Virus record (IMG/VR): IMGVR_UViG_3300038701_003016
Location: 29-64,028 of that record
Reading direction: 5' to 3' (one strand)
DNA from: a virus
DNA: 64,000 nt
Below the pieces are notes generated by a model. The model did not search any database, was not told the origin of the DNA, and saw nothing but the letters and a program-made list of their open reading frames with translations. Shown piece after piece: positions 1 to 53,382 of this stretch. Numbering within the stretch: position 1 is the first letter of the stretch; every line of letters starts with the position of its first letter. Position numbers and translations under genes: made by a program.

Positions 1-240
1 CCTGTAATTTTAGGGGAAGAACCCTGTAATTTTAGGGGAAGAACCCTGTAATTATCGGGGAAGAATTTAGAGCAAAAATGTAAGGAAATCAAGGGCTTAA
101 TAAAATAGAACATAGATATTCGGGGAAGAACTCAGTAATTTTAGGGGAAGAACCCTGTAATTTTAGGGGAAGAACCCTGTAATTTTAGGGGAAGAACCCT
201 GTAATTTTAGAGGAAGAACCCTGTAATTTTAGGGGAAGAA
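1..240. repeat. 22-bp tandem repeat array (CCCTGTAATTTTAGGGGAAGAA), iteron/origin-like
   Basis: Three units at 1-65 (first lacks one base, third degenerate) and five at 131-240, separated by a 65-nt AT-rich spacer ending in a partial unit. No unique spacers. Confidence 0.9.
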
Positions 241-320
241 CCCGGTTTTAAATAATGGGATTTATTCCCCGTAATTTCTCTTATACATATTTCTATTCAA
301 TTTACATAGGAGACTTAAGC

Positions 321-1339: not shown

Positions 1340-1354
1340 ATATGGATATTAAAT

Positions 1355-1426
1355 GCTGTATAGCTTAAGGAAAGCGCTAAGCTGGTAACTTAGAGATGTA
1401 GGAGGTCGAGTTTCTACTACAGCCCA
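1355..1426 (+). tRNA. degenerate tRNA-Thr(GGT)-like element
   Basis: GCTGTA/TACAGC acceptor stem followed directly by CCA, D arm GCTT/AAGC, anticodon arm CTAAG-CTGGTAA-CTTAG. The T-loop (GGTCGAG) is non-canonical. Confidence 0.6.
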
Positions 1427-3783: not shown

Positions 3784-3917
3784 ACTTTCCATTCCATTAC
3801 CGTCTTGCCAGGGCGGACTTGGCGAGACACTCTTTTTACATTGCCCGCACCGAAGCTTAATTTCTCTTTAGTTGAAAGGGCGCTAAATTCTTTGTCTGAG
3901 TATGTCCGAACAATCAT
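3771..3917 (-). CDS. 48-aa early protein missing from the ORF track (MIVRTYSDKEFSALSTKEKLSFGAGNVKRVSRQVRPGKTVMEWKVYIV)
   Basis: Translated by hand. Lies directly downstream of a promoter cassette with a GGAG RBS 7 nt before the ATG. Confidence 0.7.
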   Translation of the reverse strand: MIVRTYSDKEFSALSTKEKLSFGAGNVKRVSRQVRPGKTVMEWKVYIV

Positions 3918-3922
3918 TGTTT

Positions 3923-3982
3923 GCTCCAGCGTTTATTTGATGAATAATATAGCGCCCTTTCCAGTCTTTGTAAATAGGAAAA
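3923..3982 (-). promoter_or_regulatory. repeated sigma70-type promoter+RBS cassette, copy A
   Basis: Minus strand TTTTCCTA-TTTACA-17 nt-TATATT-ATTCATCAAATAAACGCTGGAGC. Confidence 0.85.
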
Positions 3983-4065
3983 TTATTTTTTTTTCCACTT
4001 TTTATTATGTACTTCCACTTCAATTCGCGTTATATAATAGATCTAGTCAATTCAAAGGGGACTTT

Positions 4066-4284
4066 ATGCCAAGATACTTTCAGAAGACTATATTCAATAC
4101 ACGTATGACTGAAAAGGTAACGGAAGTTTCCATCTTAAATGATAATGAGGTACCAGACTTTTTCAGTCGAGAAGAATTAGAGAAACTTGATAAGGGACAG
4201 TTGATCTATAGGAGTCATCCTAATTATAGCTTGGAAATAGTCGACCTTCAAGCTTTCTTTAATAAGGGTAGAAAAAAGAGTTGA
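4066..4284 (+). CDS. hypothetical protein (72 aa)
   Basis: Start moved from 3805 to the ATG at 4066 (AAGGGG RBS). The longer version would run through an opposite-strand promoter and gene. Confidence 0.65.
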   Translation: MPRYFQKTIFNTRMTEKVTEVSILNDNEVPDFFSREELEKLDKGQLIYRSHPNYSLEIVDLQAFFNKGRKKS

Positions 4285-4294
4285 ATGTGATTTG

Positions 4295-4372
4295 AAAAAG
4301 GGGCTTATATAAGCCTCTTTTTTATTATAGGGATTTAGGTAAATAAAAAGGCCCCTGAAGGGCCCTTTATTT
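4295..4372. terminator. pair of intrinsic terminators between convergent genes
   Basis: Hairpins GGGGCTT/AAGCCTC and AAGGCCC/GGGCCCT with flanking A/T tracts. Confidence 0.75.
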
Positions 4373-4384
4373 TATTTAAATTAC

Positions 4385-4633
4385 TTAAGCTTTTTTAACA
4401 AGTTCTACATCGAATTTTTCATTTTTCGCTATTGTTTCTTTAATAAGGTTTCCAGTAATTGTTCCTTGTAAAACCAAAGTAACATTATCACCCGATTTTT
4501 CAATTTCTAATACTTTATGTTTTTGAATTTGGAATTCATAGTTTGGGTTTTTTGTATCTACCATTACATATACATCAGCTGTCGCATTCAGTTCTTTAAA
4601 GCGCTTAGCAGTAATTTGTGTATGGACTGACAT
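4385..4633 (-). CDS. hypothetical early protein (82 aa)
   Basis: Start MSVHTQ at 4633, downstream of cassette B and its GGAG RBS. Confidence 0.75.
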   Translation of the reverse strand: MSVHTQITAKRFKELNATADVYVMVDTKNPNYEFQIQKHKVLEIEKSGDNVTLVLQGTITGNLIKETIAKNEKFDVELVKKA

Positions 4634-4640
4634 GTTCTTA

Positions 4641-4702
4641 GCTCCAGTGTTTGTTTGATGAATAATATATAACCCCCTTTCCAGCATTTGTAAATAGGAA
4701 AA
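4641..4702 (-). promoter_or_regulatory. repeated promoter+RBS cassette, copy B
   Basis: TTTACA-17-TATATA followed by the same ATTCATCAAACAAACACTGGAGC leader. Confidence 0.85.
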
Positions 4703-4801
4703 TTCACTTTTTCTATTTTTTTTTTCGCTTTATATAATAGGAGAGAATTTCGCTTTATATAATAGGATATTCCAAAATAGGAAAAAATAGAAAAAAGTGA
4801 A

Positions 4802-4860
4802 TTTTCCTATTTACAAACGCTGGAAAGGATGCTATATATTATTTATCAAATACACAAACA
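4802..4860 (+). promoter_or_regulatory. repeated promoter cassette, copy C
   Basis: TTTTCCTATTTACA-AACGCTGGAAAGGATGC-TATATA, inverted relative to copy B. Confidence 0.85.
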
Positions 4861-4872
4861 GAGGGAATTGAA

Positions 4873-5073
4873 ATGATTTACGCAAAATTGACAACTGCAA
4901 ACAAAACTAAACCTGTAGGGTATTTTGAAACTCCACACCACTTAATTGATTATATTATGAGTAAAGGAGAAATTTTAGATTGGGTTCAAATGGATACTGA
5001 AACCCAAGGGACTTTTTCGATTAAAATGAAAAGAGGACAAAAGCTTTACACTTTTGAGCAATCCAAACATTGA
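4873..5073 (+). CDS. hypothetical early protein
   Basis: ORF behind cassette C with a GAGGG RBS. Confidence 0.7.
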   Translation: MIYAKLTTANKTKPVGYFETPHHLIDYIMSKGEILDWVQMDTETQGTFSIKMKRGQKLYTFEQSKH

Positions 5074-5091
5074 TTTAATTAAATAAGTATT

Positions 5092-5167
5092 AAAGGGGAG
5101 GCTTTAAGCCTCCCTTTTTTTGTATATAAATAATGATAATAAAAAGACCCCTTATAAAGGGGTCTTT
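5092..5167. terminator. pair of intrinsic terminators
   Basis: GGGGAGGCT/AGCCTCCC plus T run; AAGACCCC/GGGGTCTT. Confidence 0.8.
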
Positions 5168-5185
5168 CTATTCCTTTAAAATGTA

Positions 5186-5398
5186 TTATCCAATAAAAAT
5201 AAGGAATTTATCTTCGTATGAAACTTTATTTGCAGGAGTATCTTCAAAACACCCTTCAGAAACCAGTTCATCAATATCTTCCTGAGTAGCTAGTTTCCAA
5301 TACATTCCGAAGGCATCCAAGGAATAATAGGTATAGTATTGTTCGTCAAAAAGGTTGCAAAGGGCTTTTGCATGGATGTCTTCGATTTCTTTATACAT
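5186..5398 (-). CDS. hypothetical acidic early protein
   Basis: ORF behind cassette D. Confidence 0.7.
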   Translation of the reverse strand: MYKEIEDIHAKALCNLFDEQYYTYYSLDAFGMYWKLATQEDIDELVSEGCFEDTPANKVSYEDKFLIFIG

Positions 5399-5404
5399 TA
5401 TTTA

Positions 5405-5466
5405 GCTCCAGTGTTTGTTTGATGAATAATATATAGCACCCTTCCCAGTCTTTGTAAATAGGAAAA
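5405..5466 (-). promoter_or_regulatory. repeated promoter+RBS cassette, copy D
   Basis: 62 bp, an inverted copy of E with one mismatch. Confidence 0.85.
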
Positions 5467-5498
5467 TGCTTTCTATTTTTTTTTTTTCAATTATAACA

Positions 5499-5560
5499 TT
5501 TTCCTATTTACAAAGACTGGGAAGGGTGCTATATATTATTCATCAAACAAACGCTGGAGC
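5499..5560 (+). promoter_or_regulatory. repeated promoter+RBS cassette, copy E
   Basis: TTTTCCTATTTACAAAGACTGGGAAGGGTGCTATATATTATTCATCAAACAAACGCTGGAGC. Confidence 0.85.
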
Positions 5561-5567
5561 AAAGAAT

Positions 5568-5897
5568 ATGTATCAATACAATTTAACAATCAAATGTGGA
5601 AATGAAAAAGTGTCAATTGATTTTACAGTTCCCAGTAAAAAAGAGGCAAAACAAGAAGGGGAATTTTTGGCAATGTCTTATGGCTGGAAAACAAATTCAA
5701 TTTGGAAAGTACATTCTTTAAAATATTTAGGAAGTTTTACTAAAAAAGAAATATCTGAATTTTCAAAAGATTTTGATAACTTATCAGAAACTCATAAAAA
5801 AGAAATAGAAAATCAAATTGCTTCAGTAAGAAAAAATAAAACATCCAAAGAACGTTTACAATCAGATAGAGATTTTATTCAATCTTTTTTAAAATAA
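5568..5897 (+). CDS. hypothetical early protein (109 aa)
   Basis: Start MYQYNL at 5568 behind cassette E. The track start at 5466 lies upstream of the promoter. Confidence 0.7.
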   Translation: MYQYNLTIKCGNEKVSIDFTVPSKKEAKQEGEFLAMSYGWKTNSIWKVHSLKYLGSFTKKEISEFSKDFDNLSETHKKEIENQIASVRKNKTSKERLQSDRDFIQSFLK

Positions 5898-5911
5898 ACT
5901 AAGTTACTTGT

Positions 5912-5992
5912 AAATAAAAGGCCCTTATTAGGGTCTTTTTATTTATGTATTTATATAAAATAAAGGGCTCTTATGATAAAGAGCCCTTTATT
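5912..5992. terminator. pair of intrinsic terminators
   Basis: AAAAGGCCCT/AGGGTCTTTT and AATAAAGGGCTCTT/AAGAGCCCTTTATT hairpins. Confidence 0.8.
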
Positions 5993-6011
5993 CTTGCTTA
6001 TTTAAAAGGAA

Positions 6012-6224
6012 TTACATATCCCAAATATTTTCTCTTTTAATAAATTGGGAAACTCTGACAGTTTGTAGCCTATTATCTCCTTTTGGTCTCTGAGTACTTA
6101 TCGCAAATACACATTCTATATCTTCATGCTCCAAAAGAGTTTGACTATGAGCATTTACAGTTTCAAGGCACTCATTGATTTCATCTTTTATTTGAGCAAT
6201 TAGCTTCTCTTTTTCAAGTGACAT
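6012..6224 (-). CDS. hypothetical protein
   Basis: ORF with a GAGG RBS behind a TTTACA-17-TATATT promoter (6251-6279, minus strand). Confidence 0.7.
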   Translation of the reverse strand: MSLEKEKLIAQIKDEINECLETVNAHSQTLLEHEDIECVFAISTQRPKGDNRLQTVRVSQFIKRENIWDM

Positions 6225-6361
6225 ATAATTTCCTCTCTATTGATAAAGACAATATAGCAGGTTATAATAGGAATGTAAACAGGAAATCCCATTCTATTTA
6301 ATGGGATACGGGAACTTAATCTCTTTTATAATAGGAACATATATTAAGTGGAGAATTTGCA

Positions 6362-11560: not shown

Positions 11561-12448
11561 ATGACTGATCTTAAAAAACCTATGCTGGCTGCCAAGTTTG
11601 ATCCTGACAAAGCTGTTTATCCTTTAATGGGAAGCATTAAAGTAGATGGAATAAGGTGTCTTATAAAAGATGGAGTAGCGGTAAGTCGGTCTTTAAAACC
11701 CATTCCTAATAAGTACGTTCAGAAATGGGCTGCTAGAAATGCAAGGCGTTTAGAAGGAGCAGATGGGGAACTAGTTGTAGGTAATTTAGAAGCTGAAGAC
11801 TGCTTTAGAAAAACCAGCTCTGCAATAATGTCTTTTGAGGGCAATCCTGATTTTAGCTATTGGGTATTTGATTTATGGAATAGGCCTGTTGCGCCTTTCT
11901 ATGCTCGATATGATGTATTTACTTTTGACCTTTGGGATGTAGACCGAGTATGTTTGCTAAATCAAGAAACTCTAAATACCCTTGAAGAGGTTTTAGATTT
12001 TTTAGATAAACAAACTAATAGAGGGTACGAAGGAATTATGCTTCGAGACCCTTACGGTCTTTATAAAATGGGACGCGCCACTGTAAATCAACGTCAACTT
12101 ATGAAATTGAAAAAATTTGAAGATGCTGAAGCGATTGTAATTGGTTTAGAAGAAGAAATGCATAATGCAAATGAGGCTCATACTAATGAAGTAGGGGCTA
12201 CAGAACGTTCACATCATAAAGAGAACATGATCGGCAAAAATACTTTGGGAGCTCTTAGAGTACAGCTTATAGACGGCTCAAAAACCGAATTTAAGGTAGG
12301 CACCGGCTTTTCGGCACAAGAACGTTTAGCGATATGGCGCTCTAAGCCGATCGGAGCTATAATTAAGTTTAAATACTTTCCTACAGGATCAAAAGATAAG
12401 CCCCGTTTTCCTGTATTTTTAGGTTTTAGAGATAGAATAGATATTTAG
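11561..12448 (+). CDS. ATP-dependent DNA ligase
   Basis: KVDGIR (motif I), DGEL, EGIMLR, KLK, and OB-fold VGTGFS...KYF...PRFP. Confidence 0.93.
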   Translation: MTDLKKPMLAAKFDPDKAVYPLMGSIKVDGIRCLIKDGVAVSRSLKPIPNKYVQKWAARNARRLEGADGELVVGNLEAEDCFRKTSSAIMSFEGNPDFSYWVFDLWNRPVAPFYARYDVFTFDLWDVDRVCLLNQETLNTLEEVLDFLDKQTNRGYEGIMLRDPYGLYKMGRATVNQRQLMKLKKFEDAEAIVIGLEEEMHNANEAHTNEVGATERSHHKENMIGKNTLGALRVQLIDGSKTEFKVGTGFSAQERLAIWRSKPIGAIIKFKYFPTGSKDKPRFPVFLGFRDRIDI

Positions 12449-12450
12449 CG

Positions 12451-12479
12451 TTTACATAACTAGGAAAATAGCGTATAAG
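12451..12479 (+). promoter_or_regulatory. sigma70-type promoter for the candidate ncRNA
   Basis: TTTACA-17 nt-TATAAG. Confidence 0.65.
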
Positions 12480-12485
12480 AAAAAG

Positions 12486-12777
12486 AACAATCGGAGTTGG
12501 CCTTTAGCAGGAGAGAGCACGCGTAGGCGTTAATGGTCTTTTAGTAGCGAGAAGCAGCTGTAGGCGGTGAGCTATTTCAGCCCCTACCTATTTAGAGTAG
12601 GGTAGCCAATAAAGAACATAGAGCGATGTCACGGAAGCAGTATAAAGCTATTAGCTTAAGGGATAGTACAATCTATCTAGCACCAATAATCAGTTAACTC
12701 TGTAGGGGCTTTTAGGAACTATATGTAGCTGCCAACGAGGCTCAAAACGAACTAAACAGTAAACGTGGATGATTGTT
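12486..12777 (+). ncRNA. candidate structured ncRNA, family unknown
   Basis: No long ORF. Nested long-range helices 12486-92/12771-77, 12496-501/12731-36, 12570-75/12725-30, 12579-87/12702-10. Confidence 0.5.
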
Positions 12778-12779
12778 TT

Positions 12780-12814
12780 AACGCGCTGGCTTGCATTATG
12801 CAGGTCAGCGCGTT
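12780..12814 (+). promoter_or_regulatory. 16-bp hairpin overlapping a possible terS promoter
   Basis: AACGCGCTG/CAGCGCGTT stem; TTGCAT-17-TATATA ends 6 nt before ATG 12826. Confidence 0.45.
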
Positions 12815-12825
12815 ATATATTTTTT

Positions 12826-13365
12826 ATGATTGAAAAAAGTTCAAAATATGAAACCGAGCGTAGAAAAGAGCTTGTAATTGAGGCGGCAAAAACAGCCCCC
12901 TCTTTTAGAAAGGCTTGTGACATAGCCGGAGTACCTTCTAGCACTGCTAATAGGTGGCGTAGGGATGATGAAGATTTTGCCGAGGCGCTACATGAAGCAG
13001 AAAAAGAACGGTGGGATGTTTTAAGAGAACATATCTATGAAAGAGCTATAGGCGGGTATGAAAAACCTGTGTATTATAAAGGCAGGCCTTTATGGAGACG
13101 AGACCCTAAAACTAATGAGCTTTTATTAGATGAAAATTTTGAGCCTATACCTCTAACAGAAACAGTCGTATCTGATAGGCTTCTTGAAAGGTATCTAGAA
13201 GCTAACTTGCCTGAGTTCGCTCGGAAATCGAGTTTGGAATTAAGTGGCCCTAATGGGGGTCCTGTTTCTACCCAATTAGTTGTAAATTTTGTTGATCCTC
13301 CTGATTGGGATAAAGTAAAATGGGATCCTGAAACAGGAAGAGCCGAATTACCAACAGATAAATAA
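12826..13365 (+). CDS. terS: terminase small subunit
   Basis: N-terminal HTH (ACDIAGVPSSTANRWRRDD), SDRLL and ELSGPNGGPV motifs, directly upstream of terL. Start refined from 12769. Confidence 0.8.
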   Translation: MIEKSSKYETERRKELVIEAAKTAPSFRKACDIAGVPSSTANRWRRDDEDFAEALHEAEKERWDVLREHIYERAIGGYEKPVYYKGRPLWRRDPKTNELLLDENFEPIPLTETVVSDRLLERYLEANLPEFARKSSLELSGPNGGPVSTQLVVNFVDPPDWDKVKWDPETGRAELPTDK

Positions 13366-13379: not shown

Positions 13380-14678
13380 ATGGCTAAATTAGTTATTGAA
13401 AGACAAATTCCTAGGGCTTTTCAAGGGCTTTACAGACCAGCAAGATATAAAGTTTTCCATGGAGGAAGGGGCTCCGGGAAATCCCATTCTGTGGCTGACT
13501 ATCTTATTTCTATGGGCGTAAAAAGACGCATGAGATTTTTATGTGCTCGGGAAATACAGAAATCACTTGCAACTTCTGTCCATCAGCTTCTACAAGATAA
13601 AATAAAAGAACAGGGCTTAGAGCACGCCTATTCAGTTACTAAAGATGGTATTAGGGGTCCTAATGGAACTCATTTTCTTTTCGCGGGTCTAAGATCAAAT
13701 CCTGATAGTGTTAAATCGATGGAGGATTTAGATGGAGCTTGGATAGAAGAAGCAGACCGGTGTTCTCAAGCCTCTTTAGATTTATTAACTCCTACAATTC
13801 GTAAACCAGGCTCTGAATTAATATTCACATTCAATAGACAAAAGACGACTGATCCTGTCGATAAATTGTTTTTAGGAGGTACTCCTCCTCCCGACGCTAT
13901 CATACAACAAGTAAACTGGCGAGACAATCCTTGGTTTCCTAAAGTACTATACGACGAAATGACGTGGCTTAAATCTAGAGATAGAGATAAGTATTTGCAT
14001 GTTTGGGAAGGGGCGCCTCTAAGCCGTTCAGAAGCGAAAGTGTTTCAAAATTGGATTGAAGATGATCTGGATGGGCAAGTTCCTTCGGGAGTTCAACTGA
14101 GATACGGAGCAGATTGGGGATTTTCTGTTGATCCAACAGTACTAGTCGGAATGTATGTTTGGGATAGAACTATTTATATAAGGCACGAAGCTTATAAAGT
14201 AAAATGCCGTATTGAAGAAACTCCTAGCTTATTTGCGGGCTCTGATGATAGAGCTCCTCAAAAATGGAAAAATCCGTATAAACAAGGAGGCCCTAAACAT
14301 AAAGGACTACCTAATGCAAGACGTACTAGAATAATAGCAGATAGTGCTCGCCCTGAAACAATAGCTTATATGAAAGATAGAGGGTTCAATATTCATAGAG
14401 CTATTAAAGGGCCTAATTCTGTTGAAGAAGGGGTAGAGTTTTTACAAAATTATGATATAGTTGTCCATCCAAGTTGCATTCATGTAAGAGATGAACTTGC
14501 TTCTTATGAGTATAAAACGGACCCATTAACAGAAGAAATATTATCAGAACTAGAAGACAAACATAATCATACTATAGATGCTACTAGATATGCCCTAGAA
14601 GATTTAAGAAGATCGCGAGGAAGACCTGTTCCAGGAGTTTCTCTTCCAGGTATGGGCCCGAGGTTAATATCAAAATGA
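13380..14678 (+). CDS. terL: terminase large subunit, PBSX family
   Basis: Walker A GGRGSGKS, AREIQ, WIEEA (Walker B), nuclease DWGFSVDP and HTIDATRYA. Confidence 0.95.
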   Translation: MAKLVIERQIPRAFQGLYRPARYKVFHGGRGSGKSHSVADYLISMGVKRRMRFLCAREIQKSLATSVHQLLQDKIKEQGLEHAYSVTKDGIRGPNGTHFLFAGLRSNPDSVKSMEDLDGAWIEEADRCSQASLDLLTPTIRKPGSELIFTFNRQKTTDPVDKLFLGGTPPPDAIIQQVNWRDNPWFPKVLYDEMTWLKSRDRDKYLHVWEGAPLSRSEAKVFQNWIEDDLDGQVPSGVQLRYGADWGFSVDPTVLVGMYVWDRTIYIRHEAYKVKCRIEETPSLFAGSDDRAPQKWKNPYKQGGPKHKGLPNARRTRIIADSARPETIAYMKDRGFNIHRAIKGPNSVEEGVEFLQNYDIVVHPSCIHVRDELASYEYKTDPLTEEILSELEDKHNHTIDATRYALEDLRRSRGRPVPGVSLPGMGPRLISK

Positions 14679-23209: not shown

Positions 23210-23746
23210 ATGGCTGGAAGAATAAGTAGACCTTTGTTCAGACGCGATCAAGTTTTTGTCGCGGTTCGTCCTATAAGGCTCTCTAAGACGACTACTTTAA
23301 ATCCCGGAGAAGAACTTAAACCGGGAGATTTCAGAATTTACCATTTAAGATCCTTATATGCGCGTCGTAGAATTGGAGTCAAAGATACTCCTTGGACTGA
23401 TGCAATGCTTAAAACTACGGGCTTTTATAAGCCAGAGGCTTTTTCTAATGTAGAACCTAAATCTGAAAAAGTAGCGGATCCTGTTTTTGAAGAAAAATTA
23501 GAGACTACTGAAAAAGGTCTTTTAGGAACTATAGTTTCCGCCTTAAGGGGTAATAAAGAAGAAGCTACAGAAGAAGCTACAGAAGAAGCTACAGAAGAAG
23601 CTACAGAAGAAGCTACAGAAGAAGCTACAGAAGAAGCTACAGAAGAAGCTACAGAAGAAGTTACAGAAGAAGCTACAGAAGAAGCTACAGAAGAAGCTAC
23701 AGAAGAAGCCAAGGAAGAAGCCAAGGAAGATGAAGACTGGCTATAG
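23210..23746 (+). CDS. hypothetical virion-module protein with EEAT repeats
   Basis: Basic N-terminal domain plus 14 tetrapeptide repeats; AGGAG RBS. Confidence 0.75.
   Translation: MAGRISRPLFRRDQVFVAVRPIRLSKTTTLNPGEELKPGDFRIYHLRSLYARRRIGVKDTPWTDAMLKTTGFYKPEAFSNVEPKSEKVADPVFEEKLETTEKGLLGTIVSALRGNKEEATEEATEEATEEATEEATEEATEEATEEATEEVTEEATEEATEEATEEAKEEAKEDEDWL
23558..23725 (+). repeat. 12-bp coding tandem repeat x14 (GAAGAAGCTACA)
   Basis: Eleven exact units, one GTT variant and two GCCAAG variants. Confidence 0.95.
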
Positions 23747-23755
23747 GTAATTGAT

Positions 23756-24160
23756 ATGGCTAATCCCGAAGTTCGAAGGGTAACTAATATATTAGTGACA
23801 AGCATAGAAAAAACTATTGCTAGGCTATCAGTTAATATTACAGCGGAACTAATAGAAAGAACGCCTGTGGATACTGGGTGGGCTAGAGCAAATTGGGTAC
23901 CCGCTCTAGGAAGCCCCTCTTCAGAATTAGCAACTACATCTCCAGACTCTTCTGATGTACCTGGCCAATCTAATAGACAAAGTTCAGGTATAAGTTCAGT
24001 ATTAGGATATAAGCTACGTAACGGTGAAGTATTTATATCTAATAATGTTCCTTATATAGAAAGACTAAACGAGGGGACTTCTAACCAAGCTCCTAAAGGA
24101 TTTGTACAAGATGGCATAGAAGCAGGAATTAAGTCCTTAGATGGGATTAATATAGAATGA
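23756..24160 (+). CDS. tail completion protein (HK97 gp10-like)
   Basis: TPVDTGWARANW...ISNNVPYIERLNEG...QAPKGFV. Confidence 0.85.
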   Translation: MANPEVRRVTNILVTSIEKTIARLSVNITAELIERTPVDTGWARANWVPALGSPSSELATTSPDSSDVPGQSNRQSSGISSVLGYKLRNGEVFISNNVPYIERLNEGTSNQAPKGFVQDGIEAGIKSLDGINIE

Positions 24161-39713: not shown

Positions 39714-39750
39714 TAATACTGGGCTGTTAGTATTTAACGGCTCAGTATTA
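39714..39750 (+). terminator. 16-bp hairpin after tail module
   Basis: TAATACTGGGCTGTTA/TAACGGCTCAGTATTA. Confidence 0.65.
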
Positions 39751-39799
39751 TTAGTATTTTACCTATATTTATTACCATCACTTACAATATTAAGAGGTA

Positions 39800-43212: not shown

Positions 43213-44952
43213 TTAACCACATTCTTTAGAGCCATCAGGCCCTATTTCACACATAGCATTGTGGGCCTCCGGAGCCTTTTCATCTGGATCTTCTTTTCCT
43301 AAAAGAATGCCCATTCTTTTCCCGTCTTTATTGAAAGTGGTACACCCTTTACATCCTCGCTCCCAAGCTTGAATATAGATATTTTTAAAGGCTTCCCATG
43401 TCATAGAGCTATCTACGTTGCAAGTCTTAGATACAGCGCTGTCTACTAAAGCTGAAGCCGCTGCCAGAACATCAATATGTTGTTCGGCAGAAACCTTTGA
43501 GGATATAATTCCCTCTACTCCAAATTCTCTATAACCATAATCGGAAACATCTACGGTTACTTTTCCTTCAGGCATATTAACTACGCGCTTGCTTTCATAT
43601 TCAAATACGGGTTCAATTCCACTAGAAATATAATCTGCACAAAAACTTATAGTTCCAGTAGGCGCAATGCTAGTTAAATGTGAATTTCGTATCCCTTTTT
43701 CTTTAATTGCGTTTCTGATTTTTGGAGAAAGAGTTTTTGCAAAAGGTCCTGCTAGGAATAAATCCCTGTCGAATTTTGGAAAAGATCCTTTTTCTTCTGC
43801 TAAATCAGTACTAGCCAGATAGGCTTCGTCTCTAAGAGTTTCAAGAATTTCAAGTTGAAATTGCATAAAATCCGCTCCAGCATATGTATATCCTAAAGCT
43901 TCAGCAGCATTTGCAAGTCCGGTAATTCCTAGCCCCATACGCCTTTTTGATAAAGCTTCCATTCTTTGTTCTGGAAGGGGATATAAAGCTCTATCTACAA
44001 TATTATCCATAGCCCTTACAACATGAGGTATATCGGCTTCGAATAATTTCCAATCAAAAATATAGCCATTCCAACCTGATTTTTTCTCTTTTTTAATATA
44101 TTTTACTAGATTGAATGATCCTAAAAGACATGCTCCAAATGGAGGAAGAGGCTGTTCTCCACAAGGATTTGTGGCGGCTATTGTTTCGCAATACCAAAGG
44201 TTATTCATTTTATTTATAGTATCTATAAATAAAACGCCGGGTTCCCCCCAGTCCCAAGTAGATCTCATAATCATTTCCCATAAATAATTAGCATCTACTT
44301 CTTTATATACTCGACCTTGCCACCTTAATTGGAAAGGCTTATTGTCCTTTAGACAATTCATAAATTCATCAGTTACTGCTACTGAAATATTAAAACCTGT
44401 TAAACTTGTGGTATTTTGTTTTGCTAAAATAAATTCCTCAATATCAGGATGGTCTATTCGCATTACTCCCATTTGAGCACCTCGACGATGCCCTGAAGAA
44501 GCTATACATCTACATATGGCGTCAAAAATATCCATAAAACTTACGGGGCCGGAAGATCTAGATTGTAGTTTTTTAATTAATTCTCCTCTAGGTCTTAAGG
44601 TAGAAAAATCGTACCCAATACCTCCTCCCATTCTCATAGTCTGGGCAGCTTGTGAAGCTCTATCCATTATAGCCCCTGGGCCTTCCACAAAACTATCTTC
44701 TAAAGTACCAGAAACATAACAATTATAAGGAGTTACAGCTTTAGGGGCTCCCATTGCTGCTTGGACTCTTCCAGCTGCAATAAATCTCATATCTAAAGTG
44801 ATATCTCTAAAAGCTTTGAAATGCTCATCATCATCTTTAAGAGTGCTAGCAACTCTATTACAACTTTCTCTAAAAGTTTCATTTGGAAGACGGTATTTTT
44901 CAGCATGAAGTTTATCGCTGAAAACCAAGGAGGGTCCTGGTTCAGTGCTCAT
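43213..44952 (-). CDS. nrdJ: class II (B12-dependent) ribonucleotide reductase
   Basis: NCYV, TNPCGEQPL, APTGTIS, C-terminal Cys pair; no beta-subunit gene present. Confidence 0.88.
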   Translation of the reverse strand: MSTEPGPSLVFSDKLHAEKYRLPNETFRESCNRVASTLKDDDEHFKAFRDITLDMRFIAAGRVQAAMGAPKAVTPYNCYVSGTLEDSFVEGPGAIMDRASQAAQTMRMGGGIGYDFSTLRPRGELIKKLQSRSSGPVSFMDIFDAICRCIASSGHRRGAQMGVMRIDHPDIEEFILAKQNTTSLTGFNISVAVTDEFMNCLKDNKPFQLRWQGRVYKEVDANYLWEMIMRSTWDWGEPGVLFIDTINKMNNLWYCETIAATNPCGEQPLPPFGACLLGSFNLVKYIKKEKKSGWNGYIFDWKLFEADIPHVVRAMDNIVDRALYPLPEQRMEALSKRRMGLGITGLANAAEALGYTYAGADFMQFQLEILETLRDEAYLASTDLAEEKGSFPKFDRDLFLAGPFAKTLSPKIRNAIKEKGIRNSHLTSIAPTGTISFCADYISSGIEPVFEYESKRVVNMPEGKVTVDVSDYGYREFGVEGIISSKVSAEQHIDVLAAASALVDSAVSKTCNVDSSMTWEAFKNIYIQAWERGCKGCTTFNKDGKRMGILLGKEDPDEKAPEAHNAMCEIGPDGSKECG

Positions 44953-45026
44953 ATAAAGTTCCTTACTACTATATTAATGAAAGTTATTAACAATATCAGT
45001 AGTTTAATACTTTATAAGCCGTTAGA

Positions 45027-45344
45027 CTATATCAATCTAGAATAATAATCGCTTCTAATACTTTCAATATCGGAAATACGTTTCATTTTATCTTGACTAC
45101 ACTTATTGCATAACCCTTCAGTATTTAAGTCTAGAGGGCTAATAAAAGGATTTTCACAATCATCACAAATATATAGCTCTTCAGAATTATATACTTCGTT
45201 TCCAATATTCACAAGTAAATAGCCAAGCCCCTCTTTTTGTATTTCTAAAATTTCTGAGGTATTTAAGGGTGATATATTATTCTCGAACATAACTAACTCC
45301 AAATTAAAAATGCCTAACTGGAACATAATATTCCAATTAGGCAT
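45027..45344 (-). CDS. hypothetical Zn-finger protein
   Basis: CDDC...CNKC motif. Confidence 0.55.
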   Translation of the reverse strand: MPNWNIMFQLGIFNLELVMFENNISPLNTSEILEIQKEGLGYLLVNIGNEVYNSEELYICDDCENPFISPLDLNTEGLCNKCSQDKMKRISDIESIRSDYYSRLI

Positions 45345-45377
45345 TAAATTAAGCTTATATTTTAAGAAGTTAGCCCC

Positions 45378-45836
45378 TTATTTAGAAGGTTTAGATCTGG
45401 GTCTCCTTTGAACCAGATTATAATTTTCGTAGCCAAATTCTCCTACTCTAGCTTTAACAGAATACCAACGAAGACACGCTGGAGTTGTTTGGGCTTCAGG
45501 AAATTCTTCAATAATCATCTCAACAATTTCTTTATAAGGAAGCCCGACGGACCTAGCATTTGGATGATTTGCTTCTACAACATTTTCAGAACTTGGTTTT
45601 TTAGTCTTATCTTCATAATAAGACACTTTACAAAGAAGTTCCATAGAAGCTTCTCTAATAGTTCTTGTTTTTGGGGCTTGTTGGGCTAAATCCCTAAGTA
45701 AATCTTGAATGTGGCCAAGTAATTTGGCCTTACTTTGTTTCCAAGGTTTACTTAATTGATGATCCTCTGGGGCTTTTGAATTGAAAAAATCTACCAATTC
45801 AGAAGAAGTTTTTTGTTCAAGTACGGAAAAATCCAT
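45378..45836 (-). CDS. hypothetical protein
   Basis: ORF with a GGAG RBS. Confidence 0.7.
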   Translation of the reverse strand: MDFSVLEQKTSSELVDFFNSKAPEDHQLSKPWKQSKAKLLGHIQDLLRDLAQQAPKTRTIREASMELLCKVSYYEDKTKKPSSENVVEANHPNARSVGLPYKEIVEMIIEEFPEAQTTPACLRWYSVKARVGEFGYENYNLVQRRPRSKPSK

Positions 45837-45873
45837 TTTTAGTCTCCATTTAACTGTCTATAAGGGTTATTTA

Positions 45874-46104
45874 TTAAGCGAATACGCTCATAAAGCCTGC
45901 GGAAGCTCCAATTACAGCGCTTACAGGAGCATAAATTAAAACGAAAAACAGAATATCTTCTTTTTTCGCCGTTTCTTCGCGTTTGAATTTTGAACGAAGT
46001 CCCATAATTTTGTATGTTGCTTTCTGCTCTGTAGTCAAACGTAGATCGATTGAACCCCATGGTGTTAAAGTGGCGTTCGGAAAGTTTTTAAATAAAGGTG
46101 CCAT
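45874..46104 (-). CDS. small membrane protein
   Basis: C-terminal TM helix; own promoter TTTACA(46155-60)-17-CATTAT and AGGAGAGG RBS. Confidence 0.65.
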   Translation of the reverse strand: MAPLFKNFPNATLTPWGSIDLRLTTEQKATYKIMGLRSKFKREETAKKEDILFFVLIYAPVSAVIGASAGFMSVFA

Positions 46105-46222
46105 TGTCCCTCTCCTAATAATGTATAGAGGATAATGGCGTGTTTTATAGGACTTGTAAATAGAAAAATGGGATTTTTTAAAATTATTTTGAATGTTATA
46201 GAGACTCCTTATATATGGACCT

Positions 46223-46693
46223 CTATAATAAAGAAGAATGTTTCGGTTGAGGATGCTTTACGATAGCTGCCAAAAATTCTATTTTAGAAGCTCCGGGGTT
46301 GACAATAGAAAGAGCCCCTAATTCTTCCAAAGTCAACCCATTTTGCATCTTATCTATTAAGTCTCTGCTTGCTGGTATTAAATATCTGTTAGCTTTTGAA
46401 TATTTTCCAATAAGAATAGCTACAAATACTCGTCCTCCGGCTCTGTATCTATTTTTCAACCAAATAGGCTGTCCATCTTGAAATTTTATTTTAATAGGAG
46501 TTTTTGCATTAGAAGGTTTATTGGCTTTTTTTAACTCAAGCCAAAATTCTATACCTTTAAAACAACCATTTACATCCGCCATTCCATTTCCTGCAGAATT
46601 TTCAATTCTATTTAAATGGAGTTGGTTTCTATAAACAAATTTTAATTTTTTGATCCATTTCCATAAATTTTCTTCGCCGGGAGTTATATTCAT
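46223..46693 (-). CDS. PD-(D/E)XK nuclease (VRR-NUC / resolvase-like)
   Basis: RIEN...GMADV...FWLELK...Q..W. Confidence 0.8.
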   Translation of the reverse strand: MNITPGEENLWKWIKKLKFVYRNQLHLNRIENSAGNGMADVNGCFKGIEFWLELKKANKPSNAKTPIKIKFQDGQPIWLKNRYRAGGRVFVAILIGKYSKANRYLIPASRDLIDKMQNGLTLEELGALSIVNPGASKIEFLAAIVKHPQPKHSSLL

Positions 46694-46708
46694 TTAGGTT
46701 CTCCTACA

Positions 46709-47152
46709 TTATACTATATTGGCAAAAATTATTTCTATTCCTGCTTGTCTAAAAGTTTCCTCAGATTTTAATTGATCTTCAGCCCAACTAGAAACAGGGT
46801 CTATTTTCCAGGATATAAGACGGGAAATACCCGCATTCAATATAGACCTACAGCATCCTTTTTTAGTACAAGGGAACATAGTTACATATAGAGAACATCC
46901 CTCTGTCTCAAACGTAGCATTCATTAAAGCGTTATGCTCTGCATGAACCATATTGTGATTTTTAACTTCTTTCATATTAAGCATCACTTGATCGTCAGGA
47001 ATATCTTTCGGAAATCCATTATAGCCTATAGATATATTACGTCTATCAGGGCTTACAAGTACGGCTCCGACTCGACAATTAGGATCTTTTGACCACCCTG
47101 AAACTTGAGTGGCTATGAGAAAAAATCTTCTATCCCATTTATTTTCTAACAT
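46709..47152 (-). CDS. dCMP deaminase
   Basis: SKDP..RVGAV, GYNGFP, HAEHNA, PCTKKGC. Start refined to MLENKW. Confidence 0.88.
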   Translation of the reverse strand: MLENKWDRRFFLIATQVSGWSKDPNCRVGAVLVSPDRRNISIGYNGFPKDIPDDQVMLNMKEVKNHNMVHAEHNALMNATFETEGCSLYVTMFPCTKKGCCRSILNAGISRLISWKIDPVSSWAEDQLKSEETFRQAGIEIIFANIV

Positions 47153-47154
47153 AT

Positions 47155-48129
47155 TTATTCCACCAAAACAGGTAAAGGAGACCAAGAATTTTTTGTTACT
47201 CTCTTGCTCAGCCGGTTAACAAGATTTATATACCCTTCAGGATTATTTTCTATTTCAGAGATGCTCATTCCAGGTAGAGAGGGCTCTATTTCAGTTAGTA
47301 CTGTAGGCCAATCTTTTTCTTCGTAAGGCCAATAAACTAAATCTGCAAGCTGTAAATGCTTAGGAATACTTAAATCAGATCCCGCACTAAATTGACTTTT
47401 CAGATATTTATAACGTTTATCTATATGATGGCTGCCCGGTATGCAAGCTTCTACCATAGCTAAATGCGGTTGATAAATATGGGCGTTAGCTAAAGTAAAT
47501 GATATAGTCCCAGGTACTAAATCTACTTCTGACGCTAAAGCATCTAAGGTAAGAGCATAAGCCATAATGTCATAAGGCAATCCTACAAATACGTCACTTG
47601 ATCTTATGAAAACTGACATATGCAATTCTCTATTATTACTTTGTTTATTGTCTAAGACATTTACACTAAAGCCTACTGGACATGGAATATTTTTAGGTTG
47701 AGAGCCTCCTAGACCATCTGAAGCAGGATCCCAAGTGCTTACATATAGTTGCCTATTAGAAGGATTTAATTTAAGTTCTTCACAAAGCTGGGCTAACTGG
47801 TCTCTGCCGAAATGTTTTCGCCAACGATAACCATAAGCAGTTTTCAACTCCCCGTCTTCTACAAATTTACTCCATAATTTAGGGGCATGTTTTAAAATAA
47901 ATTCAGGGTTTTTAGTGCCCATTATTTGCCAAGCTACCTCGGCGGCGGCCACTTTTGGGAAATAAGCTCTATTAGCTGCTAAAGGCAGTCTGCCATTTAA
48001 CTCTAATTTTATATTATAAGAGCCCCTATGGGTTAATACTTCCGTCTCAGTTCTGCTATTGAGCTGCTTTACTCCTTCTTTGTATATTGTAGTCAGCAGA
48101 GTTCTATATTGTTCATTGAGAGTTTCCAT
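47155..48129 (-). CDS. thymidylate synthase homologue with Asp at the N177-equivalent site (candidate dCMP methyl/hydroxymethyltransferase)
   Basis: AAEVAW, AYGYRWR, catalytic PC, RSSDVFVGLPYDIMAY, NAHIY. Confidence 0.85.
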   Translation of the reverse strand: METLNEQYRTLLTTIYKEGVKQLNSRTETEVLTHRGSYNIKLELNGRLPLAANRAYFPKVAAAEVAWQIMGTKNPEFILKHAPKLWSKFVEDGELKTAYGYRWRKHFGRDQLAQLCEELKLNPSNRQLYVSTWDPASDGLGGSQPKNIPCPVGFSVNVLDNKQSNNRELHMSVFIRSSDVFVGLPYDIMAYALTLDALASEVDLVPGTISFTLANAHIYQPHLAMVEACIPGSHHIDKRYKYLKSQFSAGSDLSIPKHLQLADLVYWPYEEKDWPTVLTEIEPSLPGMSISEIENNPEGYINLVNRLSKRVTKNSWSPLPVLVE

Positions 48130-48130
48130 G

Positions 48131-49015
48131 TTATACCTTCCAATATAAGTGGTTCATAATTCGCCCTAAATTTTGCACCGTGGTTGATATATCACTATTA
48201 TTATCTAAGTGATAATCAGCCATATGAGGAGTTACCGAGCAAGATCCTTGGTCCTCAGGGAGTATTACCTTCGATCTATCTACCCAAATTATAGCGTCGA
48301 ATACATTCTCTTTAATACATTGTACAAGTTCTGAAGAGTCCCGCATTCCACAGTAGATATCATTTTCTTTCAATATTTCTTTTGCTAATTTAGATTTAAT
48401 AGGAAAATTATATTCTTGAATGGCTTTGTACCATATTTGTCTATTGTTACCTGAATGCCTATCTTCAAAGCATTCCGCTGTGCTATTATATTTTCTGCCA
48501 AGTTTTTCAAAATAAGGCCTCATGATCCGTTCAGCACAAAAAGCACTAGAAGATGTGAATTTCAACCCATAAGAATTTTGTAATATATCACAAACAGTAT
48601 CTTTTCCATGTCTTCCATGCCCAATAACTAATATTTTTGGGCGCCTTTCAATAGCTTTCTTTATATCTGGAGCTTTCCATCCATAAGGCTTTATGGCATC
48701 ACAGCCTAGAGCTCCAGGGCGCTTACTTAATTCGCCTTTTTCTTTAAGCATATTTGCTTTATGAACTTCATTTAGGACTTGTTTACCATTAACCCCCATT
48801 TCATAAAAACGCCCGGCGGCAAAGTACATTAGATCCATTAAGGCATCTACTTCATCTTCTAAAGTTTCAGCGTCCTTAAACTCCTGTAATTCTTCGGCAA
48901 GAGCTGAACTCGTCCATATCTTTCTTTGCTCCGAAAGCCTCTCAGGCGATACAGGTTTTGGGATATCAACTATGTATTTTGCAAAGTCTGCAGTAAGCGT
49001 GAAAATATCATTCAT
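48131..49015 (-). CDS. MazG/PRA-PH-like NTP pyrophosphatase fused to a dNMP-kinase-like P-loop domain
   Basis: EELQEF...DALMDLMYF...EVHKANM followed by ILVIGHGRHGKDT. Confidence 0.8.
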   Translation of the reverse strand: MNDIFTLTADFAKYIVDIPKPVSPERLSEQRKIWTSSALAEELQEFKDAETLEDEVDALMDLMYFAAGRFYEMGVNGKQVLNEVHKANMLKEKGELSKRPGALGCDAIKPYGWKAPDIKKAIERRPKILVIGHGRHGKDTVCDILQNSYGLKFTSSSAFCAERIMRPYFEKLGRKYNSTAECFEDRHSGNNRQIWYKAIQEYNFPIKSKLAKEILKENDIYCGMRDSSELVQCIKENVFDAIIWVDRSKVILPEDQGSCSVTPHMADYHLDNNSDISTTVQNLGRIMNHLYWKV

Positions 49016-49023
49016 ATTAAGTC

Positions 49024-49302
49024 CTATCTATTTAGCATATTCTCAAATACCATTTCAGAAGTGAGAAATGTCACGATAATTCCATTTTTCCATAACGCAT
49101 AATAAAATACCCCTTCATAACCTATTCTATAAACCCTGATACGTCTTTCAGTATATATTTTACGACAGGTACCTTTGCAGATACTAGTATAACAAGCCAT
49201 ATATACCCGGGCAGCATTCTCAGGAAGAACTTTGTATCTAGAAACAAGTCGCTGGCAAGCATGGACACTTGCTCTTACGATCTTATCCATATCTGGATAC
49301 AT
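49024..49302 (-). CDS. hypothetical protein
   Basis: SVHACQR...IVTFL pattern. Confidence 0.65.
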   Translation of the reverse strand: MYPDMDKIVRASVHACQRLVSRYKVLPENAARVYMACYTSICKGTCRKIYTERRIRVYRIGYEGVFYYALWKNGIIVTFLTSEMVFENMLNR

Positions 49303-49304
49303 AC

Positions 49305-49982
49305 CTAATCAAGCCAGCTTTCATCTTCAGCGGGTTCATCAAATGGATTAGAGCACCCTTCTGGAAATTCAATAGTAGCATTGTCTCCTACCAACCTATA
49401 TCCAATTCCATGATCCTTTTGAAGCATAAAAAGGTAAGATAAAGCATTAGATCGAGACATTGAGAACTCTGCCATAGCTTCTCGTATAGACCTGATATTA
49501 TTTCCGTCTATAAACCACTTAAGAAATTTCCCTCTTTTACTTTTTAATTTTACAGCCTTCTTTAGGGTGTTAGCTACTTCTTTTCCGCCTTTAACCCTTT
49601 TATCTTGGCTACCATCTTTCATAATTTGGTCTGGGACTTTAAGCCCTAATTTTCTCATAATTAGGGCCGCAGTATCATAATCTTTTTGCCAGCCATTTCT
49701 TTGGAACTCTTTCCACTTCTTAACAATATGCTCAGAAAACCAGTCAGGCCTAAATTCCAGATCAACGCTGCCTGTAAGTTCCCCGGCTAAATTAGGTATA
49801 GAATAGCTCTGGAAAGTATAAGGGCAAAAAACAGTAGATCTCTTTTCGCCTTTTAATACTAGAGCGCACTGCCAACCATTACATGGGGGGTCCTTTATGT
49901 AAGCGTCAATTGTACTTTTACGTACAGACCCGTTAACATAATAAATACGAACCCATTCCATTCCCTCTTGAATAATAGACAT
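49305..49982 (-). CDS. hypothetical protein with C-terminal winged-HTH-like region
   Basis: SIREAMAEFSMSRSNALSYL. Confidence 0.65.
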   Translation of the reverse strand: MSIIQEGMEWVRIYYVNGSVRKSTIDAYIKDPPCNGWQCALVLKGEKRSTVFCPYTFQSYSIPNLAGELTGSVDLEFRPDWFSEHIVKKWKEFQRNGWQKDYDTAALIMRKLGLKVPDQIMKDGSQDKRVKGGKEVANTLKKAVKLKSKRGKFLKWFIDGNNIRSIREAMAEFSMSRSNALSYLFMLQKDHGIGYRLVGDNATIEFPEGCSNPFDEPAEDESWLD

Positions 49983-49984
49983 AT

Positions 49985-50281: not shown

Positions 50282-50302
50282 ATGTATTCCCTCTCATTAA
50301 AA

Positions 50303-50334: not shown

Positions 50335-50366
50335 ATAAAATAGTTTCCTACTAAAATATCCCCTTA

Positions 50367-53379: not shown

Positions 53380-53382
53380 TAT

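What the first reader, a model, noticed from the sequence alone, without database searches (positions are those of the whole stretch)
12451..12820. Unassigned ~290-nt structured RNA with its own promoter, upstream of the terminase
Seen: a TTTACA-17-TATAAG promoter places +1 near 12486, exactly where AACAATC begins. That sequence pairs with GATTGTT at 12771-77. Nested inside are GTTGGC/GCCAAC (12496-501/12731-36), AGCTAT/GTAGCT (12570-75/12725-30) and a perfect 9-bp AGCCCCTAC/GTAGGGGCT (12579-87/12702-10), plus local hairpins and a twice-repeated GTAGGCG. The region is visibly GC-richer than the genome, has no long ORF, and is followed by a 16-bp hairpin and T-tract. Inference: a discrete multi-junction ncRNA of no family I recognise. 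It could be a packaging-associated RNA, a decoy/anti-defence RNA or a ribozyme.
Basis: partly seen in the sequence, partly recalled or inferred. Interest (0 to 1): 0.75.

Follow-up and report, generated by a model that had tools for sequence, protein, structure and literature searches.

The report
Orphan noncoding spacer before phage terminase
The 377-base gene-free gap before this marine phage's DNA-packaging genes is real and probably transcribed up to a strong terminator. Nothing shows that it folds into a special RNA, and no related sequence could be found to test that.

Summary
The sequence facts check out. Window 12449-12825 lies between an ATP-dependent DNA ligase and terS. It has no ORF, stops in all six frames and no protein-family match. 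It starts with a TTTACA-17-TATAAG promoter-like site and ends in a 17-bp hairpin plus T-tract, 10 nt before the terS ATG. Its GC (42-43%) is matched among intergenic regions only by the tRNA and tmRNA regions.

Fold energy of 12486-12778 is no better than shuffles (z +0.38; the phage tmRNA gives -4.0). The named helices occur at chance frequency. Rfam gives nothing. No homologue exists for a covariation test. Syntenic relatives have only 39 nt or a small ORF at this position, so the insert is lineage specific.

Best reading (about 0.45): an operon-boundary cassette. An untranslated, loosely folded RNA of about 340 nt ends at a strong terminator that separates early/middle genes from the packaging operon. 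terS has no Shine-Dalgarno site. It may be read from a promoter-like site embedded in the terminator (leaderless) or by read-through.

A trans-acting orphan ncRNA is not excluded (about 0.2). This scan has noted similar promoter-to-terminator noncoding units near terminase genes on other phage DNA.

The parts
11561..12448 (+). ATP-dependent DNA ligase, last gene of the early/middle + strand block
   Evidence: Pfam DNA_ligase_A_M and DNA_ligase_OB_2; 6386 homologues, best 56% identity
12436..12469 (-). Relic of an early-promoter cassette in reverse orientation, spanning the ligase stop codon. It supplies the TTTACA hexamer and the TAGGAAAAT 9-mer.
   Evidence: Alignment to the cassettes at 3940-5541, with a 10-nt gap in the spacer. 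TAGGAAAAT occurs 8 times in the genome, 5 of them in cassettes.
12451..12479 (+). Sigma-70-like promoter candidate: TTTACA, 17 nt, TATAAG; predicted +1 near 12486
   Evidence: It shares the -35 hexamer and spacing with the six early cassettes. The -10 lacks the last T and the consensus scan does not list it.
12486..12778 (+). Untranslated body, 293 nt, 43.3% GC, purine-rich, no significant fold
12503..12566 (+). Weak direct repeat of about 29 nt (TTTAG ... GTAGGCG) with 37-nt spacing. It lies in the densest GTAGG cluster of the genome (5 copies in 200 nt against a mean of 0.35).
   Evidence: 4 of 100 shuffles reach its score. TRF finds nothing and autocorrelation is not significant.
12576..12612 (+). 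Local hairpin (z -2.9).
   Evidence: P4 pair probability 0.77; domain 12579-12710 z -1.6
12779..12825 (+). Intrinsic terminator: 17-bp stem with 9 G-C and 2 G-U pairs, 3-nt loop, then a T-rich tail that ends at the terS ATG
   Evidence: -28.1 kcal/mol, z -7. On the minus strand the G-U pairs become mismatches. No other convincing + strand intrinsic terminator lies between about 6.0 kb and this point; the two weak hairpins listed there sit inside genes.
12791..12821 (+). Second promoter-like site inside the terminator: TTGCAT, 17 nt, TATATATT. It would put +1 on the A of the terS ATG (leaderless mRNA).
   Evidence: the only TTGNNN-17-TATATATT in the genome. The -10 block equals that of the early cassettes. 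This is inference, not shown.
12826..13365 (+). terS (small terminase), 179 aa, no Shine-Dalgarno sequence
   Evidence: The N-terminus aligns with homologue P0006. Weak Sf6_terminase Pfam hit. Followed by TerL at 13380-14678. Most other genes carry GGAG/GAGG.

Best explanation
The gap is a lineage-specific, non-coding operon-boundary cassette, not a specially folded RNA gene. It is most likely transcribed on the + strand, by read-through from the ligase operon and perhaps from its own weak sigma-70-like promoter (+1 near 12486). The product would be an untranslated, loosely folded RNA of about 340-380 nt that stops at the strong intrinsic terminator 12779-12825. That terminator insulates the early/middle genes from the packaging and structural operon. 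terS starts 10 nt after the stem and has no ribosome-binding site. It would be expressed either from the promoter-like site embedded in the terminator, as a leaderless mRNA, or by partial read-through. Shown: non-coding status, composition, the terminator and its strand, absence from relatives, and absence of excess structure. Inferred: that either promoter fires, that the RNA accumulates, and how terS is expressed.
For: No ORF, and no protein-family signal in six frames read through stops. The terminator is strong and + strand specific. No other convincing + strand intrinsic terminator follows the early cassettes at about 6.0 kb; the two weak hairpins listed there lie inside genes. The promoter-like site has the phage's own -35 hexamer and spacing. 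terS begins at 12826 by alignment and lacks the GGAG/GAGG seen before most genes. A TTGCAT-17-TATATATT site puts +1 on the ATG. Other late-region terminators sit in intergenic gaps, so read-through or re-initiation is normal in this phage. Syntenic relatives have ligase, then 39 nt, then terS, or a 66-aa ORF in between. The body is therefore dispensable for the phage type. Transcripts that end at a terminator in front of a structural gene are documented in virulent phages, including YuA (PMC10914365). [quoted passage not shown]
Against: A pure spacer would be expected to be AT-rich like the other gaps (21-40% GC), yet this one has 42-43% GC, like the tRNA and tmRNA regions. GTAGG is clustered here more than anywhere else in the genome. 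The 5' end at the predicted +1 pairs with the 7 nt just before the terminator, with probability 0.94, as in many discrete RNAs. The -10 hexamer of the first promoter lacks its last T, and the -35 of the second is weak. No transcript data exist.
Confidence: 0.45

Rival explanations
1. One reading: a discrete trans-acting ncRNA gene of about 340 nt, a moron-like unit with its own promoter and terminator. It would close its ends in a P1 helix and act as a regulator, sponge or anti-defence RNA.
For: The promoter-to-terminator frame is present. Among gaps, only the RNA-gene regions match its GC. P1 and P4 are probable in the ensemble. It is an insertion relative to syntenic relatives, as morons are. 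The z-score test has limited power, because the two tRNAs give only -1.5 and -1.0.
Against: Fold energy has z +0.38, against -4.0 for the phage tmRNA, and the helices are at chance level. There is no Rfam match even at E up to 10. No homologue was found anywhere searched. No antisense target of more than 12 nt exists in the phage.
Confidence: 0.2
2. Inert remnant: foreign or decayed DNA left between ligase and terS. Only the terminator functions, the promoter match is accidental, and the body is the 3' UTR of the ligase operon.
For: Relatives lack the element. Its left edge is a broken copy of an early-promoter cassette in the wrong orientation, which points to recombination scars. The promoter pattern is not significant once the six cassettes are set aside. 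There is no structure signal.
Against: Its GC is above that of every early gene (26-39%), so it is not a decayed early gene. No frame keeps any protein similarity. Compact phage genomes seldom keep 300 nt of useless DNA.
Confidence: 0.2
3. DNA-level site: a packaging-recognition (pac) site or regulator-binding region read by terS or another DNA-binding protein through the clustered GTAGG and TTTAG motifs.
For: It lies directly upstream of terS. It holds the densest GTAGG cluster in the genome and a direct repeat with 37-nt spacing. Two sites that resemble the 22-bp iteron flank the gap at 12411 and 12700. TerL of the RDJLphi1 group falls in the P22-like headful cluster (PMC3070671).
Against: Syntenic relatives with homologous terS and TerL have no such region. 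The repeat is weak.
Confidence: 0.08
4. Pseudo-antitoxin of a type III toxin-antitoxin system: promoter, repeats of about 37 nt, terminator, used to escape abortive infection.
For: The frame is promoter, repeat-like RNA, terminator, then a gene immediately after. GTAGG occurs at 12523, 12560 and 12597, exactly 37 nt apart.
Against: Copies are only about 54% and 32% identical when read off the 37-nt rows. TRF finds no array and the periodicity is not significant. No Rfam match appears in the region. The downstream gene is terS, not a ToxN-like nuclease.
Confidence: 0.02

Closest known systems
Lambdoid late leader: PR' promoter, 6S RNA, tR' terminator, with Q antitermination
   Same: A constitutive-type promoter, an untranslated leader of a few hundred nt and a strong intrinsic terminator placed before the late genes. 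A -10-like hexamer (AACAAT) sits at the predicted +1 to +6. That is where PMC3326312 places the pause-inducing -10-like element of lacUV5; the same paper reports sigma-dependent pauses at +16/+17 on lambda PR'.
   Different: No Q-like antiterminator was found in about 36 ORFs scanned. Pause-inducing signals occur in 10-20% of E. coli promoters, so the hexamer means little. The terminator abuts the first late gene.
5'UTR-derived ncRNA candidates made by premature termination in virulent Pseudomonas phages, including YuA (Putzeys et al. 2024, PMC10914365)
   Same: A small or medium untranslated RNA that starts at a promoter and stops at a terminator just before a structural gene. YuA shares genome organization with the RDJLphi1 group (PMC3070671).
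   Different: Those RNAs were seen by long-read RNA-seq and northern blot and are conserved within genera. Here there is no expression data and no conserved relative, and the RNA would be longer (about 340 nt).
Phage morons (promoter, insert, terminator units between conserved genes)
   Same: An insertion between two genes that are adjacent in relatives, framed by its own promoter-like site and terminator, with composition unlike its surroundings.
   Different: Morons normally carry a protein gene. This one has no ORF.
ToxI-type (type III) antitoxin RNA arrays and phage pseudo-ToxI
   Same: Promoter, repeat-like non-coding RNA, terminator, then a gene immediately after; a period of about 37 nt.
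   Different: The repeats are degenerate and not significant, and there is no toxin gene.
pac regions of headful phages (SPP1 pacL/pacR, P1 pac)
   Same: A non-coding stretch next to terS with clustered short repeats.
   Different: It is absent from syntenic relatives and there are no end-mapping data. The details of these known pac sites are recalled from general knowledge, not tested here.

Membership tests
Any Rfam 15 family (riboswitches, ribozymes, 6S, RNase P, ROOL, GOLLD, ToxI and others) | Covariance-model score at or above the gathering threshold | tested here: not met
   The whole window gives only tmRNA and tRNAs. For 12300-12950 at E up to 10, the best hit is 17 bits against a 49-bit cut-off, and it lies on the terminator.
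Structured ncRNA (generic) | Fold energy better than dinucleotide shuffles | tested here: not met
   z +0.38 for 12486-12778, with sliding windows between -0.6 and +1.9. Controls: tmRNA -4.0, tRNAs -1.5 and -1.0.
Structured ncRNA (generic) | Covariation in homologues | not testable with these tools
   No homologue in phages, IMG/VR, the metagenome scan or 401 sampled genomes. terS homologues reach only 51% identity and ligase homologues 56%.
Lambdoid PR'-tR' late leader | Promoter, leader and intrinsic terminator upstream of late genes | tested here: inconclusive
   The terminator is met. The promoter is only consensus-like, with a defective -10.
Lambdoid PR'-tR' late leader | Q-family antiterminator gene in the phage | tested here: not met
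   No Pfam antiterminator family in the ORFs scanned. Many ORFs have no family at all, so a novel factor is not excluded.
5'UTR-derived phage ncRNA by premature termination | Primary 5' end and a terminator-defined 3' end before the start codon, with no SD-led ORF inside | not testable with these tools
   The sequence is compatible. Confirmation needs RNA end mapping.
Type III antitoxin RNA | Near-identical tandem repeats followed by a ToxN/AbiQ-like toxin gene | tested here: not met
   TRF finds none. Lag-37 autocorrelation is 0.38, below the shuffle 95th percentile of 0.40. The downstream gene is terS.
pac / terS recognition site | Conserved position and repeats among phages with homologous terminase | tested here: not met
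   L091 has a 39-nt gap, L088 has a 66-aa ORF, and Tedan and RDJLphi1 have unrelated gaps of about 170 nt.

The most novel reading that the evidence does not exclude
The insert is an orphan, horizontally acquired RNA gene. On this reading a roughly 340-nt trans-acting RNA, closed by the 12486-92 / 12771-77 helix and carrying repeated GUAGG protein-binding motifs, is made early by a marine roseophage-like virus that also encodes its own tmRNA. It would act on a host factor or defence system.
Probability: 0.15. Interest if true: 0.55.

Novelty: new member of a known kind. Interest (0 to 1): 0.25.

Why it matters
If the RNA is only a boundary transcript, the finding is ordinary. It would still document how an AT-rich relative of the RDJLphi1/Tedan roseophages separates early from packaging genes, and it hints at a leaderless terS. 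If the body has a function of its own, it would add to the growing set of uncatalogued phage RNAs placed beside packaging genes. With no relatives, that cannot be argued from sequence.

Tried and rejected
1. Known RNA family: Rfam at gathering threshold and at E up to 10 found nothing.

2. tRNA-like element: ARAGORN finds none in the gap.

3. Pseudogene: all frames are full of stops. The six frames read with X at stops give no PHROGs hit at E up to 1. The GC is above that of every early gene.

4. Small peptide gene: the only ORF inside is 23 aa (12626-12697), and its SD-like GAG lies only 2-3 nt from the ATG.

5. Homologues by DNA:
- Phage blastn found none.
- nhmmer and blastn on 85 loci of relatives found none.
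- The whole Tedan and RDJLphi1 records gave only chance hits.
- Four IMG/VR pattern scans and one metagenome scan gave only seed-length chance matches that do not extend.
- Among 401 sampled Alphaproteobacteria genomes there was one 29-nt chance hit.

6. Host identification through the phage tmRNA: only the universal T-arm/acceptor stretch matches, so this led nowhere.

7. Antisense targets inside the phage: nothing beyond 12-mers. One same-strand 15-mer at 23519 is probably chance.

8. Tandem-repeat or type III antitoxin idea: not significant.

9. Shared late-promoter motif among late intergenic gaps: none.

10. Minus-strand RNA: it folds worse and has no terminator.

11. attP: no Pfam integrase family in the 36 ORFs scanned, and none of the unscanned ORFs outside the structural block has the size of a tyrosine recombinase.

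12. A covariance model from the single sequence was not built. Only session loci could be searched, and the relatives are 55-70% GC.

Full report
**Context.** The window is almost the whole of a 64,159-nt IMG/VR virus record. Its GC is 37.7%. It is a siphophage of the RDJLphi1/Tedan (Xiamenvirus-like) type. TerL is 65-67% identical to Ruegeria phage Tedan and to a JGI contig, and terS is 47-51% identical to Tedan, RDJLphi1 and RDJL6. Genes run on the + strand from 255 to 43098: early and DNA-metabolism genes first, then terS, TerL, a Mu-type portal and structural genes. A replication block lies on the - strand from 43213 to 61173. The finding sits between an ATP-dependent DNA ligase (11561-12448) and terS.

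**terS start.** The longest ORF begins at 12769. Alignment with five homologues places the N-terminus at the ATG at 12826. The gap is therefore 12449-12825, 377 nt.

**Observation.**
- The gap has no ORF of 24 aa or more, and there are 6-12 stops in each of the six frames.
- No PHROGs family matches when the frames are read through stops with X.
- The hairpin 12779-12815 is a 17-bp stem (9 G-C, 2 G-U) with a 3-nt loop and a T-rich tail. Its energy is -28.1 kcal/mol and its z is -7.
- Both mismatches of the palindrome are G-U on the + strand and A-C/C-A on the - strand. It is therefore an RNA-level element of the + strand.
- The core 12486-12778 has 43.3% GC. Of 27 intergenic gaps of 60 nt or more, all others have 21-40% GC, except the tRNA gap (42%) and the tmRNA gap (45%).
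- No gene in the early block exceeds 39% GC.

**Is it more than chance?** For structure, no.
- The MFE of 12486-12778 is -71.5 kcal/mol against a shuffle mean of -73.2, giving z +0.38; 125 of 200 shuffles fold at least as well.
- The z of -2.4 for the longer stretch comes wholly from the terminator.
- Sliding 100-nt windows give z between -0.6 and +1.9 on the + strand wherever the terminator is excluded.
- As positive controls, the phage tmRNA gives z -4.0, but the two tRNAs give only -1.5 and -1.0. The test is informative but not decisive.
- Complementary 6-mers (11 against 11.8) and 7-mers (4 against 3.0) are at expectation. A perfect helix of 9 bp or more appears in 17% of shuffles.
- In the partition function, P1 (ends) has probability 0.94 and P4 (the 9-bp pair) 0.77, while P2 has 0.007 and P3 0.26. 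Forcing all four helices costs about 4 kcal/mol.
- The best local signals are a 37-nt hairpin at 12576-12612 (z -2.9) and the P4 domain (z -1.6).

**Known families.** Rfam 15 finds in the window only an alpha-type tmRNA and three tRNAs. With permissive filters on 12300-12950, nothing scores above 17 bits. ARAGORN finds nothing in the gap.

**Relatives.** No DNA similar to the gap was found in any of these searches:
- the phage collection;
- 85 loci around homologous terminases;
- the whole Tedan and RDJLphi1 genomes;
- four IMG/VR pattern scans and one metagenome scan, whose few hits stop at the seed;
- 401 sampled alphaproteobacterial genomes.

Among 5.8 billion proteins, terS has no relative above 51% identity and the ligase none above 56%. 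The phage is therefore an orphan and covariation cannot be tested.

The ligase search did give syntenic relatives. Contig L091 has ligase, 39 nt, terS, TerL. Contig L088 (63 kb) has ligase, a 66-aa ORF, terS, TerL. Tedan and RDJLphi1 have unrelated gaps of about 170 nt before terS. The 377-nt stretch is thus an insertion peculiar to this lineage. It is not a conserved packaging site or a conserved RNA of the phage type.

**Promoters.** I confirmed them. They read TTTACA, 17 nt, TATATATT.
- The pattern TTTACA-N16-18-TATA occurs 9 times against 1.5 expected. Six are the cassettes and one is the site at 12451.
- Setting the duplicated cassettes aside, the remaining three hits are near expectation.
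- The -10 here (TATAAG) lacks the conserved last T, so the promoter is plausible but unproven.
- Alignment shows that 12436-12469 is a broken cassette copy in the opposite orientation, with a 10-nt deletion. It shares the 9-mer TAGGAAAAT, which occurs 8 times in the genome, 5 in cassettes. The TTTACA may therefore be a by-product of a recombination scar.
- A second promoter-like site lies inside the terminator: TTGCAT at 12791, 17 nt, then TATATATT. It is the only such combination in the genome, and it puts +1 on the A of the terS ATG.
- terS has no GGAG/GAGG, unlike most genes of this phage. The ATG-proximal sequences read in the relatives show none either.
- A leaderless terS mRNA is thus possible, but it is inference only.

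**Transcription logic.** On the + strand, the only terminator-like hits between the paired terminators of the early cassettes (up to about 5.99 kb) and 12779 are two weak hairpins inside genes, at 10204 and 10863. Later terminators lie in gaps at 26214 and 39714. The 12779 hairpin is therefore the natural end of the early/middle transcripts. It sits at the boundary with the packaging operon. No Q-type antiterminator, sigma factor or RNA polymerase was recognised in about 36 ORFs scanned. Most small ORFs, however, have no family at all.

**Other features of the body.**
- GTAGG occurs 5 times in 200 nt, the densest cluster in the genome (mean 0.35).
- A 29-nt direct repeat (TTTAG ... GTAGGCG) recurs after 37 nt, and 4 of 100 shuffles reach its score.
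- TRF finds no array, and the 37-nt periodicity is not significant.
- The pattern CTGTA-N0-8-TTTTAG, the core of the 22-bp iterons at the genome junction, occurs outside the iterons only at 12411 and 12700, on either side of the gap. This is curious and unexplained.

**Interpretation.** The evidence best fits an operon-boundary cassette.
- The stretch is probably transcribed into an untranslated RNA without unusual structure, as a leader or trailer.
- That RNA ends at a strong terminator just before terS.
- terS is then expressed by re-initiation from the embedded promoter-like site or by read-through.

This architecture resembles the lambdoid PR'-6S-tR' leader. The hexamer AACAAT at the predicted +1 to +6 recalls sigma-dependent pause elements. 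Such elements occur in 10-20% of E. coli promoters, so the resemblance carries little weight (PMC3326312). The architecture also resembles the 5'UTR-derived RNAs made by premature termination that long-read RNA-seq found in virulent Pseudomonas phages, including YuA (PMC10914365). [quoted passage not shown]

The GC content, the end-closing helix and the GTAGG cluster keep alive the rival reading that the body is an RNA gene in its own right. I give that about 0.2. An inert remnant gets 0.2, a DNA site 0.08 and a type III pseudo-antitoxin 0.02.

**Earlier findings of the scan.** Other agents reported promoter-to-terminator non-coding units beside terminase genes in other phages. A sequence look-up found no look-alike of this stretch among them. 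They are leads only and do not count as evidence here.

**Verdict.** The feature is a real, lineage-specific non-coding unit of a known general kind. Interest is low to moderate.

Noticed in passing
window 56028-56449 (-): The phage carries a complete alpha-type, two-piece (permuted) tmRNA gene among its replication genes. It scores 113.5 bits on Rfam RF01849, ARAGORN gives the tag peptide VNDNQPLVDFAQAA, and its fold z is -4.0. Only the universal T-arm/acceptor stretch matches sampled alphaproteobacterial tmRNAs, so it does not reveal the host.
   Followed up: partly
window 1-262 and record end (L086, L087): About ten 22-bp iterons lie in two clusters just after the Prim-Pol/primase gene. The last ~100 nt of the record repeat its first ~100 nt, so the 'linear' record is in fact a closed or terminally redundant genome. 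The iterons are a likely replication origin.
   Followed up: partly
window 12410-12423 and 12700-12716: Outside the iteron arrays, CTGTA-N0-8-TTTTAG occurs only here. The first copy matches 13 of the first 14 iteron bases and lies in the conserved PVFLG codons of the ligase. The two copies flank the gap. This could be chance or binding sites for the iteron-binding protein.
   Followed up: no
window 12769-12775 and 12826-12832: The 7-mer ATGATTG is repeated exactly 57 nt apart and in frame, bracketing the terminator module. It may mark a duplication of the terS start when the hairpin was acquired.
   Followed up: no
window 3900-6300: Six near-identical early promoter cassettes (TTTACA-17-TATATATT plus an RBS) in both orientations each drive a tiny gene closed by bidirectional terminators. 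A broken seventh copy spans the ligase stop codon (12436-12469).
   Followed up: partly
window 1354-1425 (+): A weak tRNA match in Rfam (40 bits) that ARAGORN does not call. It may be a degenerate or unusual tRNA-like element in a 102-nt gap.
   Followed up: no
window 12826; L083, L084, L082, L088, L091 terS starts: terS has no Shine-Dalgarno sequence in this phage. The few bases read before the terS ATG in its high-GC relatives show none either, whereas most other genes of this phage have GGAG/GAGG. The group may use leaderless or SD-independent initiation for terS.
   Followed up: partly
window 23494-23757: A 12-nt tandem repeat (about 16 copies, an acidic EEAT-type repeat) lies in ORF 23210-23746. 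The same ORF shares a 15-nt identity with the gap (23519-23533 equals 12709-12723).
   Followed up: no
L083 688-2150 (Ruegeria phage Tedan 38064-39526): A 1.46-kb stretch without annotated genes lies about 1.3 kb upstream of Tedan terS. It holds several unannotated ORFs of 60-126 aa and has no Rfam match.
   Followed up: partly
window 39714-39799: A 17-bp terminator hairpin is followed about 15 nt later by a promoter-like TTACCT-18-TACAAT before the gene starting at 39800. This is a second terminator-then-promoter boundary in the late region.
   Followed up: no
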